DNA of 64,000 nt. Source: Sphaerodactylus townsendi. Lineage: Eukaryota. Positions 1,437-60,263 of this stretch are shown here, in pieces (the stretch's first letter is position 1; every line of letters starts with the position of its first letter). Location of the stretch: positions 1,116,001 through 1,180,000 of the forward strand of contig NW_025950341.1 of the NCBI RefSeq assembly GCF_021028975.2, written 5' to 3'. The notes under the pieces were generated by a model that did not search any database, had not been told where the DNA came from, and worked only from the letters and a program-made list of their open reading frames with translations. Made by a program: the position numbers and the translations under genes.

Positions 1437-1885
1437 TTTTTAAATGATATTTTAATTAATTTTCTTAAATATAATTCAAAAACAGAAAAGAAAATATAGA
1501 AAGAGAAAAAAGAATTACCTAAAAACTATATATACATAACAAATTAATATTCTTTCTATTATTATTATTCTTACATAATCAATTTAGGCTCAAATAAAAA
1601 ATACAGTTCCCATTTCCCATTGAACTTTTGTTTTGACCATCTGTTTTCAGGATGCGTTAATTTGGCCATTGTAGCATATTCTCTAACTTTATCTTCCCAA
1701 AGTTCTGTGTTAAGATCGCTTTCAATTTTCCAATGGGATGCAATAATTACCCTTGCAGCTGTTAATAAATGCCAACTTAGTTCATTAAGCTTCTTTGGAA
1801 GATTTTCAGGCAAAATGCCTAATAGCATAATTTTAGCAGTAAAAGGAAATTTTTGTAAACAATTTTTTGACATCTTAAGGTGCTA
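1437..1885 (-). mobile_element. L1-clade LINE 3' fragment (ORF2 C-terminus plus 3' UTR)
   Basis: ORF 1571..1873 LLTAARVIIASHWK...W..KVREYATMAKLT...F.GKW is typical of non-mammalian L1 ORF2 ends. Confidence 0.8.
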
Positions 1886-2494
1886 GTACGTTTCATTTGA
1901 TGGCCAGAACTTTGTAATTTTCAAGAAACTGCAAATCAGGGACTTGTGTCTTGAAACAGTAGCCTGTAAAATTCCATAGCTTACAAGGCAATGTTCCCAC
2001 CGGACAGGATGCCTGCAAAACACCAGAAAAAAAGGTAAATAACCTATTGCAAAATGTAAATACATCCTCTTATATTTCCCTGGTGGAATCTATCCTATTT
2101 TCCTATTTCTACATGTCTTCCCTGCTGATACCAGCTTGTCCCTCTCACTCAATGTTGCTGTCCAATTGCATTTGTCACTTTTCATTTGACCACATGCTCA
2201 GCCCATATAGGTGAATCTGCCAACTGGAACTACTCAAACTACACAACTACAACCGATTACCCTCACCATCAAAACCAGCTTAAACAAGGAGGCCTTATAC
2301 AACTCCCAGATAGTACTAAGGTTTAAACTTCAATAAGCTCCGAAGAGTTTAACCACCTAGAACACCTCTCTATACTATCTAGAGTTGGTGCACAGATTAT
2401 TACTATTATTACTACTATTTCTAAAGTAGTGGAGGGCTTCCACTCATTTCAAGTGTTGTAATGGGTAAAAGGGAGTTTTTCAGATTTCTTTTTT

Positions 2495-2740
2495 TGCAGT
2501 CAAATCTCAGCTGATTTATGGCAATCCCTTGGGTTTTCAAGGCAACAGACATTCCGAAGTGGTTTGCCATTGCCCGTCTCCACCCTGGCATTCCTTGCAG
2601 GTCTCCCTTCCAAATACTAGCTACAGTCAGGTCCAGAAGCGTGTGACTGCCCCGCCCCCGAGGTCACCCAGCAAGCTTCCATGACATGAGTGGGGATTTG
2701 AATCTGGGTTTCCCAGATTCTATTCCAACACGTTAACCTA
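2495..2740 (-). mobile_element. Fragments of a 5S-derived SINE and a tRNA-derived SINE
   Basis: gcagtcaaatctcagctgatttatggcaatccc tail followed by ggtcacccagcaagcttcc...ggatttgaatctgggtttcccagattc. Confidence 0.65.
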
Positions 2741-3168
2741 GGGATGCCAAACTCATTTTTTATGAGAACTAGATGTGACATGAATGTGACTTGGTTGGGT
2801 CAGGCCCTGGGGGGCTCCCTCAGCTGGCCCCTGAATAATTTGGGGGGAGGGGTCTCTGGTGAGCCTGCAGGGGTGGGGTGGCTGCCTTGAGAAGGCTTAT
2901 CAACCAGCTGAGGCACCACCACCGCCTTGCTCCAATTTGTTGCCTTAATCACTATGCCATGCTGGCTCTCATAATGTTTAACCTTGAATTATTATTCTCA
3001 TTTTTCTGGAGGCAAGCCCCATTAAACTCATTGGGACTTGCATTGGGACTTGTATCCAATAAGTTCAAGAGAGCTAAAGCAGATAGTAGATTTTTGGTTC
3101 AGGTAGTCAAAGCAGTATATTTTGATAGTTGATAGTTGATATTATGATAGTTGAATCTGAAGACTACA

Positions 3169-3464
3169 GCAGTGGCATAGGAGGTTAAGAGCTTGTGTAT
3201 CTAATCTGGAGGAACCGGGTTTGATTCCCAGCTCTGCCACCTGAGCTGTGGAGGCTTATCTGGGGAATTCAGATTAGCCTGAACACTCCCACACATGCTA
3301 GCTGAGTGACCTTGGGCTAGTCACAGCTTCTAGGAGCTCTCTCAGCCCCACCTATCTCACAGGGTGTTTGTAGTGAGGGGGAAAGGGCAAGGAGATTGTA
3401 AGCCCCTTTGAGTCTCCTGCAGGAGAGAAAGGGGGGATATAAATCCAAATTCTTCTTCTTCTTC
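3169..3464 (+). mobile_element. tRNA-derived squamate SINE (Squam3-like), full length
   Basis: A-box tggcataggaggtta, B-box gggtttgattcc, body ctctcagccccacctatctcacaggg, (TTC)n tail. Confidence 0.85.
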
Positions 3465-5413
3465 TACATATGGTTGTCCCCAGCCTAAATGCCAGATAAA
3501 AGGTTGCAGTCCCTTGAAAAGCAGTGAAAAGCAATCCTGGTGGTCTAGGATAATCAGATACAGATCACTAGCCTGAGATTATAAAAACAAATACACGTCA
3601 CATTCAATCCATAAAACATTGATGGAAATTAGATTAAAATTCATCTCCACCTTTATTCAAGAGGGACTTGCATCAGGATCAGCAAAAATTAGGTTTACAG
3701 TTATCATGTCAATTATCAAGGTGAGGCATATGTGTATTTCCTTCTCCTGTGAGAGATCCAGTTTGCAAATTATGAAATGTCTATGCCTTTGCTGAGATAA
3801 TATCTTAATTCATGTATTCTTTGGGGGCATGAATGAACATATGGAAGGGTCAAATCAGGGTAGCTCCTGCTGGCCTTGCTGTCAGACTGCCAGAACTCAG
3901 GGACCTATGTAAAAAGAAGTTCAATTATCTCAGCCGTGGCTCTCCTAACTTCCCAAGCAGAAAGAGTGCCATTCCATTCTGAATGCTTGTTCTAACATTT
4001 TAAAAGGTTGGGTCCAAGGTATGCATGTCTAAATTGTTTATACGCTCTGTACACAAATGTACAATTGCTGAACATTAGTGTCTGTCTCCCCTATTTTATG
4101 CTTTCTCTCCCTCTCCGCTCAGCTCATTCCTTCCTACAAGATGCTCATATTAATTCCTTTTCTTCACATTTTATGATAACAGGCTCAATCTTGATTCCCA
4201 AGAGAGCAAACTTATGCTTGAAATAATAGGAGTCTGGCACTTTAATCCTTAAGCAAAAATGAAATTTGAAAGACTCAGGTTCAAATTCCCATTCACAAGG
4301 TGACCTTAGTTCTATTTTAGTCTAACTACCTCACTGTCTGATTTCTGTAGGATAAAATAGAGGAGAACATGATGCACAGCACCCAGAGCATCTCGAAGGA
4401 AGGACAGGATAAATAATGTACTAAATAAATAAATACCAAAGCAAAAAAGGCAAAAGTCACCAGACTTGTATCCATTATATTGCCTCTGATCATCACACAT
4501 ATTAGGATCATATTTATATCAGTGCTACATGCACACATCCATAATATCATAAGTACCAACTCAAATACCATGGAAAATGATAGGATCTTGGATGATGTGC
4601 AGGAACTAACACACTTTCAAAGGTATGCTTTTCAATACTGCACATAGGGTCATTGTATTCATTCCTGATCAGCTCCTTTCAGGTGTCAAATTGCATTTGA
4701 ATGAACACTTGATCAAGGCTGCTGTGGTTTTCCATTTGTGTCACTTATAAGTATCTCATAAAAACATGGTTGTATAAATGCACCCTAATTAAGCATATAG
4801 AGAGCCTGCAGAGAACCTAGCAGTGTAAGCATTAGAAGGGACTCTCTGATGATGTATTTAGATGTTGGACTCTAAAATGGCATTGTACCCTTTGTCATCC
4901 TTCTGGCATACCAAGGGTTCAGTGAAAGACAAAGCTATAGGTTAGGGCACTACTGTTCCTGGAAATCTTATAAAATATTTGAAAATAAGTCATAAAAGTT
5001 CACTATCAATATATAATGAAAATAATACATATTGCAATAGCAGTCCTCGTTATGTTCTCAGTATTGCTAACAACACCAAGAAACAGACAGGAATTCACTC
5101 ACCAGTTCTGCACATCAGATAAATCCAATTAAAGGTGACCAGTCCCTTCACACTTACACAGTCTCTGGATGGTCAATAGAAATCTTAATCTATCATACTT
5201 AAGTCTTTTTCATGTTACTTCTGATGTTATCCATATCAAGAATCCCACGAAACTGAAAATCTTACAAAGCTATAGATCAACCCTGACACTAAGGGGCATC
5301 ATCTCAGCTAAGAGGTAAAAATCAATTTGGGGGAAATGTCCCTGGTGTCTTAGAACTTTTAGTTAGGTTCCTTGGTTCCACATGGCATCAATGACAATAT
5401 TGTTACTTTAGGG

Positions 5414-23035: not shown

Positions 23036-23623
23036 AAAGTGTTACAATATTACAGAAAGAAGTATAAACAAGATCAGAGCCAGGAGGAAGAGCTGAGCTT
23101 CCAGGCATATTGCACTTCCCTTTTCTCAAACTTACAGCCTCAATTCAGCAGTGCTGAAATATCAGCAAGAAATACACTAGCATGCTCTCTAAAACCCAGG
23201 GGCGTACCTAGGCAAACTGTAGCCCGGGGACAAAACTTGAGTTTGCCCCCCCCCCCATCACGACCAAACAATGATTTTTTTTGCACCAGGTCATTTCTAA
23301 TCACCATCACATTATAGAACATGCCTCAACGCAGCACTAGTCCATACCACTCAGCAGAAATCAAACATTTAGACAATTTTTTCAAAATGCTTTCAAAATG
23401 TTTTATCACTGCTGTGAAAACGTTTACACTGTTATATCCAGCACCCCCAATTGACCCCAGCATTGGAAACACAGCACAGTGCTGGGAGGAAGAGAGAGAG
23501 GGAGAGGACAGGGACAAATTTCAAGTCATGTTTTCCACAGTAGTTGCACACTACTTGGATTTTAATACTGACAAAGGCACTAACTGACATGAACTCACAG
23601 TCTTCTGAAAATAACTTAACTTA

Positions 23624-24033
23624 GGCCGTTTCCGCACGGGCAAAATATGACGTCGTCGCAACGGAAAAAGAAGCGTCAGAGCGAGCGTCAAGACGCCGCT
23701 AGCGCGATAGGCCCGCCGCCAAAACGCCAAACCTGCCGAAGACGGGTGCAGACCAGAAAAAACGCTTAAAACCACTCTTTTCCCATGTGACGATCGACGC
23801 CAAGACTGCATGCAACAGCCGCCACGGAGCTGTCGCCAAAATGGCGTCAGCTCGCATCAGCCGCGGCGCGCAGGCTAACATCGCAGACGCCGCCTCGCTT
23901 CCCGCGGCGAACTGGTCATTACATACCCGCGTGGGCTGCGGATCGCGAAGTCTCGCCTTCTGCTCCAAACGTTTTGGGATGTCAGCAATTTGCACGCCAT
24001 CGCTGTTGCCTGCTTTTGGCCGTATGAAACGCC
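23624..24033. mobile_element. CpG-rich PIF/Harbinger MITE
   Basis: TIR ggccgtttccgcacgg / ccgtatgaaacgcc; TSD tta. Confidence 0.85.
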
Positions 24034-24994
24034 TTAGAAAAACACAATTATAGTCTTGGAAATAACCTCGAACAACTGCTTTTTCCTCTGAAATATGTTC
24101 AAAGCCTAGAATGTAAGAAACTCATCTATGACTAACTAAGAAGGCACCCCAGACTACCTCTCAGTTCAGAACTATTCCATTGTAGAGATAGGAACCAAAG
24201 CCAGCTTCTGCTGGAAGTTTGATGTCTGGACACTCATTCTGTGGGCAGCAGCTTCACCTTCAACTGCGCCCCCGTAGCATTTGCCCCTCCAAAGCAAACT
24301 TCAGCAAAGTTGACTGGTTCCTTTTCAGGACACTCCAGCAGCAGCTCCTGAAGTAAATTTTGGTGCCTCTCTATCAGAGCAAGACCCCAGCAGAGTGCAC
24401 TGCCATTGAAATCTCTACCACCAGAGACAGCTTGGCATAACAGCAAGCCTCACCCAATCCCACACCTCTCTACTGCTTCAAATAGAGTGAGAAATATAGC
24501 ATTTTCCCCTCCAGAAGAACAGAGGCACACACACCCTTCCCTACTGCCTTCCACGCACCTCCCTTTTAAAATACAGCTTTCACTTTACAACACCTAATGA
24601 ACTACGCATTATCAAGGGGGGGGGCACATTTGTAAAGCCCTGAATCTCCTACCAAATCCACACAGCACTACACCAAGCAGTTGCAGAAACACAACTCCCT
24701 CCCCCCCCCAAACCAAAAAACCTGAAGTGGCGAGACCCACAGATCCGCCCAGGGCACAGCAAGAACTACAGGAAAACAAACCACTTCTAAAGAAAAGGTT
24801 GCTTTTCTTTTTTAAAAAGCTAAGACAACAAACTTAAAAGTAGAACCAAAGCAAGCTAGCAAGTAACAGCCTAGCCACAAAGCAGGGGTGGGGGGACAAA
24901 CTGGGAGACACCTATATAGAAATTTCAAACCCAAACTAACAGAAGAAGGTAAAATTATGAAACCACAATACTGGGCTACAGGGTGTAACACACC

Positions 24995-25127
24995 TCTTCT
25001 CTCTGAAGATGCCAGCCACAGATGCAGGTGAAACGCAGGGGAACAAGATTCACTAGACCATGCATTACACAGTCCGGAAAACCCACAACAACCAGTTGAA
25101 TCCAACTTAGAAGCCTTTGACAATACA
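24995..25127 (+). mobile_element. Penelope-like element 3' end with hammerhead-like core
   Basis: ctctgaagatgccagccacagatgcaggtgaaacgcagg...gcctttgacaata; homologous to 57961-58085 and 33545-33617. Confidence 0.75.
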
Positions 25128-25327
25128 AAAAATAAATTTTGTTTTGTAAAATAAGATGTCAATGGTAAATTTTTCCTTGCAATAAGAAAAGTTCCGAAGT
25201 TATGTGAACACATAGTTCAGAAATTAGTTTTTTAAGTCTACTGAGTTATACCTTAGCTAAGATTTTACATCCTCTTTATTAAGGATTTTAGTTTTAAGAA
25301 TAATTGAATAATATAAAGAGATCCCAC

Positions 25328-25862
25328 CAAAGTGGTGGGATCCAAAACTTTTAGTGTCAGGTTCCCTCGCCAGCTCCCTCAAAGCAAAGTGCGTAGAGGC
25401 TGCATGTAGGCAAACCTGAGCCCTGGGCAAAACCTGAGTTGGATGCCCCCCCCATGGGCAGCCACCCCACCACGACCCCAAAAAAAATTTTTTGCACCAG
25501 GTCATTTCTAAATCACCATCATATTATAGAAAATGCCCCAACTCACAAATCTGAACACAGCAATGGTGAAACACACAGGTTCTTTGATAGAGACTGGTGA
25601 GATAAAGGCAACTTAAAAGGCTGAGAATCACTGAATTGCAGGTCCTGAAAGCGATTAACCCAGTTCAGGGAGTGACATTATTAGTCGCACTTGCTAAATG
25701 GAACTCCTTCATGTTCAGCAGCAGGATGCCTCTCGGGGAGGCGAGGGCGCGGAGATGGAAAAGCTTAATCACTTGGTAACCCCCTCTCGGCACACACAAT
25801 ACCAGTCAATTAGTAACCCACTCTCGGGAACTGGTGGAGAACCCGCTGGATCCCACCCTCTG
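25328..25862 (+). mobile_element. Nested non-autonomous hAT element
   Basis: TIR caaagtggtgggatcc / ggatcccaccctctg; perfect TSD gatcccac. Confidence 0.8.
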
Positions 25863-27740
25863 GATCCCACCCCACCTCGAAGTTGGCCTTCGCTGCAAAA
25901 GGCAGGAATGCCTGTTTTCAGCTCTCATATACCAAAATCAAACATCTCTGGAAAGATGCAAATAACGGTTTAATTTAGTTTGTTCCTTCCTCCTATGTCC
26001 ACAATGGAATCAGACCCGAAGCCAACTCAAACAAACAGAACAAGAAGATTTTGAATGGCTCTCTACCCCCAATCACATTCTCTCTTGTAAGGTGGCTAAA
26101 AGTTCCTTTCCTTTCCTCCCCCCCACACCTTTGCTGGCCCCCCCCCCAACATCTGAGAGGCTGCCAATGCAGGGTAAATACTAGTATTGGGGGGGAGAGG
26201 GGATTCTTGGGGTAGAATTCTTTAGTTTTTAAAACGGAAGAATTTTATCTCAACCTATGCAGAGGGAACCTGTCTTTGCTGATGCTTGCTGATCCAAGGA
26301 CTGGGCTCCTTCAGTGGGAGACAGTCTGTTGGATTAAGCAGTTTGGAATGCCTCCCCTCCTTTCTCTCCTGTAAGGAGGATCTGGAGGTGCAGTGAGAAA
26401 ATCAAGGTGGGCGAAAATTGTCCTTTTCGCTTTACTCCCACACACATCTTTCCTGCTCCCCATTACTAACAACAGAGCGCCCCCCAGCAGAGGCAGAAAT
26501 GCAATGGCGGGAGGCAACCCCAGGGGGTAAGGGAAGAGAATCCCAGGGGCGGGTTTTTTCTGTTTTCCTTTGGGTGGGGGTGTTTGGGAATTGGGATCTC
26601 ATTTTGTTCCTCCTTTTAAAAACTTTTCAAGCTGCTCTGGCATCCGGCAGAGATCTTGGAGTTTCAACTTCCTTTAAAAAAAAAAAAAACACCTTTTCAA
26701 GCCTCATGCTGCAGCAGAGAGTATCCTGACGTCTCCGGTTTGGTTTTTTCCCCCCCAAGCTGCTTAGGGAGAGGAAATCTTGCAAAAAACACACCCCCTT
26801 TTAACTTTTTTACTTTTTCAAGCTGCAGTGTGCCAGCCATGGAGGGAGACTGGGACTCGGGAGTCTCGTCTCAGGAGGGGTTTTTTAAAAAAACTTTTTC
26901 AAGCCACTCAGCAGAGATGGCTCAACTTGGGGCAAGGAGGGAAGGGGGGGGCGATGGGCAGGGCCGGCGAAAACAAACCTCTCTCTCTCCTCTTGTGACG
27001 AGGCGGCTGCGAGGGACATGGGCTGCTGGCAGCAGGATTTGGAGAGGCAAAAGCCGGAGCCCGCTTCTTTCCCCACGTGCCTGTGCTGCCTTGCCTGCCT
27101 GCTGCTTCCTCCCAGGCCTGCTCTTTCCTTTCCTTCTGTGCTACTGCCTGGGCAGTCAGCAGGGGAGGAGGCAAGAACGCTGGGACAAAGGGAGGCGGAG
27201 CTCCCCGTCCTGCTCGGGTGGCTTGCTTGCTTGCTTGGGGTGAGAGGTGGAACTGGCCCAGTGGGCCACCGTCTGAAGTGGGCGGGGATAAGGCAGGAAA
27301 TAGGAAAACAATCTGGTCCACTGCTTTCTCTGCAAAGTTCTACTGCTTTCTCTGCAAAGGTTTGCTGGCGCCCCCACGTGACCAAACACGTGACAAAAAT
27401 TGGTGTGCCCGGGGACAAAGGGTACCCTTTGTCCCTAGGCAGGTCCGCTACTGCTAAAACCAATGGCTTGTATCCTACCACTCTGCTTAGCAAGCTGTGA
27501 AGCCTTCCTCCAACAGAAGCTCTTCGTCAAATGAAACGCTCCTTGTTCAGGAGGAAGGTTTTGTACTTACAATTCAGTTCTAAAAGGAGTTTTACCCTTC
27601 TGAATCCATTGATGTCACTGGGCCTAGAGTGGTGTAACTCTGTTTAGGATTTAATTGTTAGATACATAGTCAAATAGAACACAACCTACTAAATACAAAG
27701 TCACTGGGACAATGTATACTTGGTATTTCATTTTGTTAGT

Positions 27741-59072: not shown

Positions 59073-60263
59073 CAGAGGCGTTCTTGCCATTGGGTAAAGT
59101 GGGCAGTTGCCCAGGGCACTCCCTTGTGGGGGGCGCAAAAACTGCAGGTTTGTTTGTGAAATTTTTGTATTTTCAGTGTTTTTTTGGTTTTTGGCCTGCA
59201 GAGGGCGCAGTTTTTAGGCTAGCAGCACAAACATTTCAGGGATTTTTCGGGAGACTCTCCTGATGATATCATCCAGGTTTGGTGAGGTTTAGTTTAGGGA
59301 GTCCAAAATTATGGACACCCAAATGGAGTGCCCCCATACCTCATTGTTTCCAATGGGAGCTAATAGGAAATGGGGGCTACACCTTTGAGGGTCCATAACT
59401 TTGGACCCCCTGAACCAAACTTCACCAAACCTGGGTGGTATCATCAGTAGGGTCTCATGAAGATACTCTGAAATTTTGGTGCTGATATCTTAATCATTTC
59501 ACCCCTTACAACAGGCACCCCCTAAATTTCCCCAGATTCTCCTTTTAAATCCACCCCTTCCCAAGCAATGCTTTGTTTTCTTTCTCTTTCTTTTATTCTC
59601 CTCAATGCCTAATAAAGGTTATTATTATTAGTAGTAAATCCACCCCCTTTGGCATGGATTTAAAGGGAGAATCTGAGGTCCCCAGTTTAAACATTGAAAG
59701 TGATGCTGTTTCAGGGGAGGACTCCACCCCAAAACAAAGAGTCATTCTGTCAATAATGTTGTTTAAACTGGGGACCCCAGATTCTCCCTTTAAAGTGGAT
59801 TTAAAAGGAGAAACTGGGCTCCCTCGTTTAAACACCATTGAAAATAATGCTGTTTGGGGGTGGATTCCAGCATCACTTGTTTAAACTAGGGAGCCCAGAA
59901 TCTCCTTTTAAATCCACCTTAAAGGGAGAATCTGGGATCCCCAATTTAAATAACATTGAAAGTGATGCTGTTTCCCCCAATTGGGGGGACTAGATACAAC
60001 ACCATAAAATGTTTTCATAGCAGTAATAAAACATTTTGAAAGCATTTTAAAAATATTTTCAAAAATTTTTCTGCTGTGTGTCATGGCCCATTGCTGTGTT
60101 CAGATTTGTGAGTTGGGGTATGTTCTATAATGTGATGGTGACTTTGAAACGACCTGGTGGAAAAAATCATTGTTTGGTCATGGTGGGGGAGGGTGGCTGC
60201 CCATGGGGGGGGCATCAAACTCAGGTTTTGCCCAGGGCTCCAGTTTGCCTAGGTACGCCACTG
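59073..60263. mobile_element. 1.19-kb non-autonomous hAT element with internal repeat modules
   Basis: TIR cagaggcgttctt / aggtacgccactg; TSD caaatata / aaaatata. Confidence 0.85.

What the first reader, a model, noticed from the sequence alone, without database searches (positions are those of the whole stretch)
23197..27453. 4.26-kb Pack-type hAT unit carrying non-transposase cargo
Seen: the whole block has a perfect 8-bp TSD (ctaaaacc) directly outside hAT-like termini, so it appears to have inserted as one unit. It encodes no transposase. Only ~250 bp at the left and ~100 bp at the right look like transposon ends. The interior looks like ordinary genomic DNA: splice-site-like signals, a decayed Penelope end, and a GC-rich segment at ~26450-27320. 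Known: cargo-carrying Pack elements are well described in plants and rarely in vertebrates. Inference: this hAT family may duplicate and move host sequence. This is the best candidate for undescribed biology in the window.
Basis: partly seen in the sequence, partly recalled or inferred. Interest (0 to 1): 0.7.

Follow-up and report, generated by a model that had tools for sequence, protein, structure and literature searches.

The report
Lizard transposon built from other transposons
This 4.3-kb piece is a real, recently inserted cut-and-paste transposon with dozens of sister copies, but about 95% of it matches other repeated DNA, with no host gene piece found, so it is likely a hybrid of two transposon lineages of a kind already described in the anole lizard.

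Summary
The unit is real. The 8-bp duplication and 13-bp imperfect inverted ends are confirmed. 18 of 23 closed sister copies have their own duplication. The site is empty, with one CTAAAACC, in two related organisms.

It is not shown to carry host cargo. Both ends, including the GC-rich right 0.5 kb, align with the ends of 4.7-14 kb transposase-coding hATs in the same genome. About 1.7 kb of the middle aligns with the inside of a second non-autonomous hAT lineage with TAG...CTA ends, like Anolis hobo-N. The rest is two nested mini-transposons, a Penelope-like remnant and an old low-copy repeat; about 210 bp stay unassigned.

Best reading: a hybrid non-autonomous hAT, likely made during repair of an excision gap and moved by a partner transposase. 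Filler-laden, recombining hATs are published for Anolis (PMC3014272), and Pack-TIRs for animals (PMC8277862). This scan has already noted end-swapping and exon-carrying hATs elsewhere in this genome. New member of a known kind; low interest.

The parts
23189..23196 (+). Left copy of the 8-bp target-site duplication
   Evidence: single copy at the empty site in organisms B and C
23197..27453 (-). Whole non-autonomous hAT copy (subfamily A), 4257 bp. Strand is set by the autonomous partners, whose transposase reads from the right end towards the left end.
23197..23623 (-). 3' end of the autonomous family, with terminal inverted repeat
   Evidence: 83-86% to L134 and L141 over element 1-428; 98% (1-49) and 89% (50-423) to L126
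23624..24033 (.). Nested 410-bp mini-transposon with a TTA duplication and imperfect inverted ends (PIF/Harbinger-like; label recalled); private to this copy
   Evidence: present in 0 of 18 other aligned subfamily-A copies; ends shown
24034..24085 (-). Rest of the autonomous 3' end beyond the nested insert (right border approximate)
   Evidence: subfamily B 1-464/499 aligns to L141, L134, L126
24086..24186 (.). About 100 bp with no source found; shared by subfamilies A and B
24187..24969 (+). Filler 1: inside of a TAG...CTA (hobo-like) non-autonomous hAT, starting in a palindromic module
   Evidence: 78-85% to L204, 72-74% to L205, 87% to L111 over 24609-24970
24970..25133 (+). High-copy fragment, Penelope-like end (label recalled); L111 and L204 share a longer, inverted-duplicate form of it
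25134..25327 (+). AT-rich block, first half; piece of an old low-copy repeat
   Evidence: 70-79% to G000:C3:13.106 Mb; relatives on C15, C17 and a second C3 site
25328..25862 (.). Nested 535-bp hAT mini-transposon with its own 8-bp duplication (25320-25327, 25863-25870); a free, abundant family that contains about 160 bp like the outer family's 3' end
   Evidence: 39 of 39 other scored places are 88-89% matches of 508-525 bp, from 3618 candidates; 10 of 11 free copies have a duplication; present in 11 of 18 other A copies
25863..26000 (+). AT-rich block, second half (same old repeat, split by the nested insert)
26001..26929 (+). Filler 2: inside of the same TAG...CTA lineage; firm to 26749, weak (degenerate repeat units) to 26914
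   Evidence: 79% to L111 over 26005-26749; 62-80% pieces in L115, L117-L121, L205, L206, L210
26930..27453 (-). GC-rich 5' end of the autonomous family (likely its promoter region), with terminal inverted repeat
   Evidence: 60-76% to L141, L134+L143, L152, L126+L142
27454..27461 (+). Right copy of the 8-bp target-site duplication

Best explanation
This is one young copy of a multicopy non-autonomous hAT whose ends match a transposase-coding hAT family in the same genome and whose middle mostly matches the inside of a different, hobo-like non-autonomous hAT lineage, so it is likely a hybrid that is moved by the first family's transposase. Shown: unit insertion, dispersed copies, autonomous partners with matching ends, and the sources of about 95% of the bases. 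Inferred history: (1) an autonomous element excised, and gap repair kept about 0.5 kb of each end but copied its middle from other templates, a hobo-like element close to L111/L204 plus about 320 bp of an old repeat; (2) the product was amplified in trans as subfamily A; (3) subfamily B swapped in a different right half; (4) a 535-bp hAT mini-element landed in one A master; (5) a descendant jumped to this site after the split from organisms B and C; (6) a Harbinger-like mini-element landed in this copy or its direct parent. Its likely effect is to raise the copy number of other repeats, not of genes.
For: 18 of 23 closed copies (11 of 16 A, 7 of 7 B) have an 8-bp duplication with at most one mismatch, all different. 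Empty site in organisms B and C. 10 of 26 transposase regions examined are closed elements of 4.7-14.1 kb with related ends and an 8-bp duplication; 5 of these 10 have open frames of 872-1042 aa. The closest is 14,114 bp with a 967-aa frame bearing DUF4371 and Dimer_Tnp_hAT and the expected catalytic motifs (motif identities recalled). The middle does not align to the 20 autonomous-family loci tested, apart from the Penelope-like and nested pieces. Complete TAG...CTA elements L204 (3965 bp) and L205 (4149 bp), each with an 8-bp duplication, hold element 991-1773 at 72-85%. L111 is 4.7-9.4% from the A/B majority; older relatives are 13-41% away. L111 and L204 keep sequence that A lacks. The L204 end TAGGCTTGGTC matches hobo_AC TAGGCTTGMTC at 10 of 11 (PMC3014272 Table 1). 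Family C, with the same left end, is 78% covered by these TAG elements (2188 of 2801 bp).
Against: Genome searches score only the best 40 candidates (65, 191, 49 and 103 candidates), so a gene-linked donor could be hidden. About 210 bp are unassigned. Trees do not fix direction: L111 sits in an open fork with A/B copies in two segments and pairs with one A copy (95/91) in the third. No single TAG element holds the whole filler. No autonomous TAG-type element was found in 70 loci, so 'hobo-like' rests on the terminal repeat only. The right-end identity to the best autonomous partner is only 62-71%, so the true helper may not be in hand. The hobo-like lineage may itself have taken its inside from host DNA long ago.
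Confidence: 0.8

Rival explanations
1. Nested insertion, then deletion: a hobo-like element jumped into a CAG-ended element, and later deletions removed its ends and the transposase. Same parts, different route. I put the gap-repair route at about 55% and this route at about 30% within the best explanation.
For: Nested insertions do occur in this family (two in this copy). Copies show many internal deletions.
Against: No trace of TAG termini in any of 27 closed A/B elements. It needs two end deletions plus a separate gain of the AT-rich block. Family C also joins CAG ends to TAG-lineage modules, which points to repeated exchange.
Confidence: 0.25
2. True Pack element: the middle was copied from ordinary host DNA, for example the region upstream of the sulfotransferase-like gene at L111.
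For: L111 is the only close end-less match to filler 2 among 40 scored places and lies about 270 bp upstream of a coding exon. About 210 bp are unassigned. Subfamily B has 1.9 kb with no match outside B except a short high-copy repeat.
Against: The matching stretch at L111 lies inside a 4.4-kb insertion that is absent from the neighbouring paralogue L116 and ends like the TAG elements. The AT-rich block has dispersed relatives. No Pfam hit in 7 ORFs, no Rfam hit at threshold, and open frames differ among copies.
Confidence: 0.1
3. Plain deletion derivative of a long autonomous element that already held this filler.
For: Autonomous copies are up to 14 kb and carry kilobases of non-coding inside, as hobo_AC does.
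Against: None of 20 autonomous-family loci holds the middle, and no transposase remnant is left.
Confidence: 0.1
4. Two independent insertions with a chance 8-bp match.
For: None.
Against: Full-length copies at other sites with their own duplications; clean empty site.
Confidence: 0.01

Closest known systems
Anolis carolinensis hobo_AC and hobo-N1 to N15 (Novick et al., PMC3014272; passages and all of section 8 read)
   Same: Lizard hATs with long autonomous copies (9-15 kb there, 4.7-14 kb here), kilobase non-autonomous families sharing ends but not middles, embedded Penelope and other transposon pieces, and recombination between elements. The filler donor here has the hobo_AC-type end (10 of 11).
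   Different: The outer ends here are CAG-type, from a DUF4371 transposase family. The exchange is between lineages with unrelated ends, whereas the section read describes exchange within the hobo family.
Animal Pack-TIRs (Tan et al. 2021, PMC8277862; passages seen)
   Same: Terminal-repeat ends around foreign DNA; multicopy with distinct target duplications; gap-filling or template-switch origin proposed.
   Different: Pack-TIRs hold a non-transposon inside with a unique parental copy free of flanking transposons. Here the parent is itself a transposon, so the element fails that definition.
hAT superfamily, Tip group (Rossato et al., PMC3942097; passages seen)
   Same: 8-bp duplication, short terminal repeats, non-autonomous copies that keep the outer parts.
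   Different: Placement of the partner transposase in the Tip group is a recalled lead; no tree with reference hATs was built.

Membership tests
hAT superfamily (non-autonomous) | 8-bp target-site duplication | tested here: met
   window; 18 of 23 closed copies; empty site
hAT superfamily (non-autonomous) | Short terminal inverted repeat starting YARNG | tested here: met
   CAGGG fits; the right end of this copy reads CAGTA, most sisters CACTG; 10 of 13 bases match; motif from PMC3014272
hAT superfamily (non-autonomous) | Autonomous partner with matching ends and a hAT transposase | tested here: met
hAT superfamily (non-autonomous) | The partner transposase moves this element | not testable with these tools
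   inferred from shared ends
hAT Tip group | Transposase falls in the Tip clade | not tested
   only Pfam domains and source names of homologues
Pack-TIR / Pack-MULE type | Ends on both sides of foreign DNA, multicopy with distinct duplications | tested here: met
Pack-TIR / Pack-MULE type | Inside is non-transposon DNA with a unique parental locus free of flanking transposons | tested here: not met
   parents are TAG-ended elements and an old repeat; about 210 bp unresolved
Pack-TIR / Pack-MULE type | Carries gene or exon fragments | tested here: inconclusive
   no Pfam hit in 7 ORFs, frames not conserved; no search against an annotated gene set was possible
hobo-N-like lizard elements (filler donor) | TAGGCTTG-type ends and 8-bp duplication | tested here: met
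   L204, L205, L209 against PMC3014272 Table 1
hobo-N-like lizard elements (filler donor) | Autonomous partner related to the hobo_AC transposase | tested here: inconclusive
   no TAG end found in 70 hAT-domain loci, 30 of them with only 1.5-kb flanks

The most novel reading that the evidence does not exclude
In this lizard, kilobase-sized insides circulate among hAT lineages with unrelated ends and transposases, so an old non-autonomous family is revived by taking on the ends of a newer, possibly horizontally acquired family. The same family also captures and multiplies true host DNA, as the 1.9-kb subfamily-B segment at 40 or more sites may show.
Probability: 0.3. Interest if true: 0.45.

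Novelty: new member of a known kind. Interest (0 to 1): 0.25.

Why it matters
It is a well-resolved example of how lizard hATs grow: a parent element for the filler, an intact helper transposase and a cross-species empty site are all in hand. It extends the Anolis hobo picture to a second transposase family and to exchange between lineages. It also warns that GC-rich 'cargo' in such units can be the transposon's own 5' end. It does not show gene shuffling. The intact 872-1042 aa frames are candidates for an active vertebrate hAT that tolerates large inserts.

Tried and rejected
1. Decayed transposase in the middle: no tblastn hit in the window copy. The hits were to three sister copies, from an antisense frame over the Penelope-like piece.
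2. Coding or RNA cargo: no Pfam hit in 7 ORFs; one Rfam match at E 0.17, far below its cut-off.
3. L111 as a host-gene donor: rejected, since the match lies in an insertion absent from the paralogue. The sulfotransferase label is recalled; Pfam gave no hit for the 47-49 aa exons.
4. G000:C3:13.106 Mb as a unique donor of the AT-rich block: rejected, it has dispersed relatives.
5. Listing all carriers of that block: 63 places, 3 in the control. Of 11 unfamiliar places fetched, 5 were B copies, 1 was the old repeat and 5 had no further match.
6. Donor of the B-specific segment: 40 of 40 scored places looked like family copies, and 10 of 10 fetched were B; no donor found.
7. Expression: no RNA holder listed; no evidence either way.
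8. Exact laying of three organism-A runs on 25560-25860 left 7-8 of 28 bins without cover, at places where the window differs from its sisters. A hole proves nothing; it is only a reason to recheck the assembly there.
9. Literature: five searches listed no description of this family. Repbase and Dfam could not be searched, and no supplements were read; those of PMC8277862 may list lizard cases.
10. No earlier scan note matched this sequence.

Full report
Observation. The 8-mer CTAAAACC stands at 23189-23196 and 27454-27461, directly outside 13-bp imperfect inverted ends. Contigs of two related organisms (B and C) join the left flank at 23188 to 27454, an empty site with one copy of the 8-mer. 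A contig of organism A runs from the element's right end into the flank. Those flanks differ from the window by about 1-2% (12 and 22 other letters in about 1090 bp), so the insertion is young.

Family. A search with the whole unit returned full-length and internally deleted copies at 81-92% on many contigs. Of 38 loci fetched, 23 had both ends; 18 of these 23 have an 8-bp duplication with at most one mismatch, all different. Sixteen are of the window's type (A, 2.3-4.0 kb) and seven share only the left 1.76 kb (B, 4.2-4.4 kb). A has roughly 35 copies (lower bound). A block shared by A and B gives 63 places, against 3 in the control. The terminal 20-mer occurs 828 times. Of 40 of these sampled on one contig only 1 was A-type; most belong to a 1-3 kb foldback family (C) or a 0.6-1.2 kb family (D). 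A copies are 1-7% from their majority.

Partner. Searches with hAT domains led to 26 regions. Ten are closed elements of 4.7-14.1 kb with related ends and an 8-bp duplication, five with open frames of 872-1042 aa. The closest is 14,114 bp, with 98% and 89% identity to the window's left end and a 967-aa frame with DUF4371 and Dimer_Tnp_hAT. In these elements the gene reads from the 'right' end to the 'left' end. The window's left 460-500 bp is thus the 3' end, and the GC-rich 26930-27453 is the 5' end, 60-76% identical to four partners. The GC-rich segment is not cargo.

Nested pieces. 23624-24033 is a 410-bp element with a TTA duplication, in 0 of 18 other aligned copies. 25328-25862 is a 535-bp hAT mini-element with its own 8-bp duplication; it is a free family, present in 11 of 18 other A copies and cleanly absent from 4.

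Source of the middle. The only close match to filler 2 without family ends was L111. It lies just upstream of a coding exon, but inside an insertion absent from a paralogue 25 kb away, and it ends like a set of older elements with TAG...CTA termini. Complete members L204 (3965 bp) and L205 (4149 bp) have 8-bp duplications and hold element positions 991-1773 at 72-85%; L111 holds 1413-1934 and 2809-3553 at 79-87%. L111 is 4.7-9.4% from the A/B majority and older relatives are 13-41% away. L111 and L204 share a longer Penelope-like insertion and other sequence that A has lost. That makes transfer from the TAG lineage into A the likelier direction, though the trees leave L111 unresolved among A/B copies and pair it with one A copy in one of three segments. 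The L204 end matches the published hobo_AC end at 10 of 11 bases. The AT-rich 320-bp block matches an old low-copy repeat. About 210 of 4257 bp remain unassigned (after counting 24034-24085 as 3' end and the AT-rich block as old repeat). No transposase, Pfam or Rfam signal was found inside.

Mechanism. Shown: the parts, their sources and unit mobility. Inferred: origin by repair of an excision gap from other templates, then amplification in trans. No TAG terminus survives in 27 closed A/B elements, and family C joins the same left end to TAG-lineage modules over 78% of its length. Both favour repeated template exchange over one nested insertion, which is not excluded. Because fillers 1 and 2 lie in one element at L111, A is likely ancestral and B a later swap.

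Comparison. It works like the Anolis hobo-N families (PMC3014272: passages and section 8). It resembles multicopy Pack-TIRs (PMC8277862: passages) but fails their requirement of a non-transposon inside with a unique parent. The labels Tip-like, Penelope, Harbinger and sulfotransferase are recalled, not tested; PMC3942097 (passages) defines the Tip group. Five paper searches listed no account of this family; repeat databases were not available. Earlier scan notes on this genome report end-swapping mini-elements and other hATs with exon cargo; I did not check them.

Limits. Genome searches scored only the best 40 candidates, so a hidden donor is possible, above all for the B-specific 1.9 kb. The filler modules could be ancient host captures by the hobo-like lineage.

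Verdict. A real hybrid non-autonomous hAT, a new member of a known kind; interest 0.25.

Noticed in passing
window 23197-27453 against L001 and L002: The three closest copies differ at only 0-3 of 425 sites in the 3' end and 7-12 of 520 in the 5' end, but at 3-15% inside, in clusters of substitutions and small indels. Assembly error inside young repeats is likely; conversion or error-prone repair is the alternative. Their age from interior divergence may be overstated.
   Followed up: partly
L021 element positions about 1765-3660 (subfamily B): 1.9 kb specific to B, at 40 or more sites, matching non-B loci only in a short SINE-like piece (label recalled) and at its last bases. Best remaining candidate for real host capture in this family.
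   Followed up: partly
L126 3549-6449 (-): The partner transposase is 61-65% identical to proteins named from a sea urchin, ticks, a toad and a cordylid lizard, a patchy spread that suggests horizontal transfer.
   Followed up: no
L123, L129, L130, L150, L224 (G000:C3, 12.95-13.09 Mb): A cluster of at least five transposase copies within about 140 kb, two of them with nearly the same 8-bp duplication, so likely local duplication or local hopping.
   Followed up: no
L111 2371-6620: A hobo-like element about 270 bp upstream of a sulfotransferase-like first exon, absent from the neighbouring paralogue L116.
   Followed up: partly
window 59073-60263 (-): A 1191-bp member of the same end family (type D) with an 8-bp duplication, one mismatch.
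   Followed up: partly
window 25407-25566: The free 535-bp mini-element itself encloses a piece of the outer family's 3' end, 84-88% like family D and some autonomous ends: another cross-family hybrid.
   Followed up: partly
L001 617-6760: Two subfamily-A copies in opposite orientation, 53 bp apart, one truncated.
   Followed up: no
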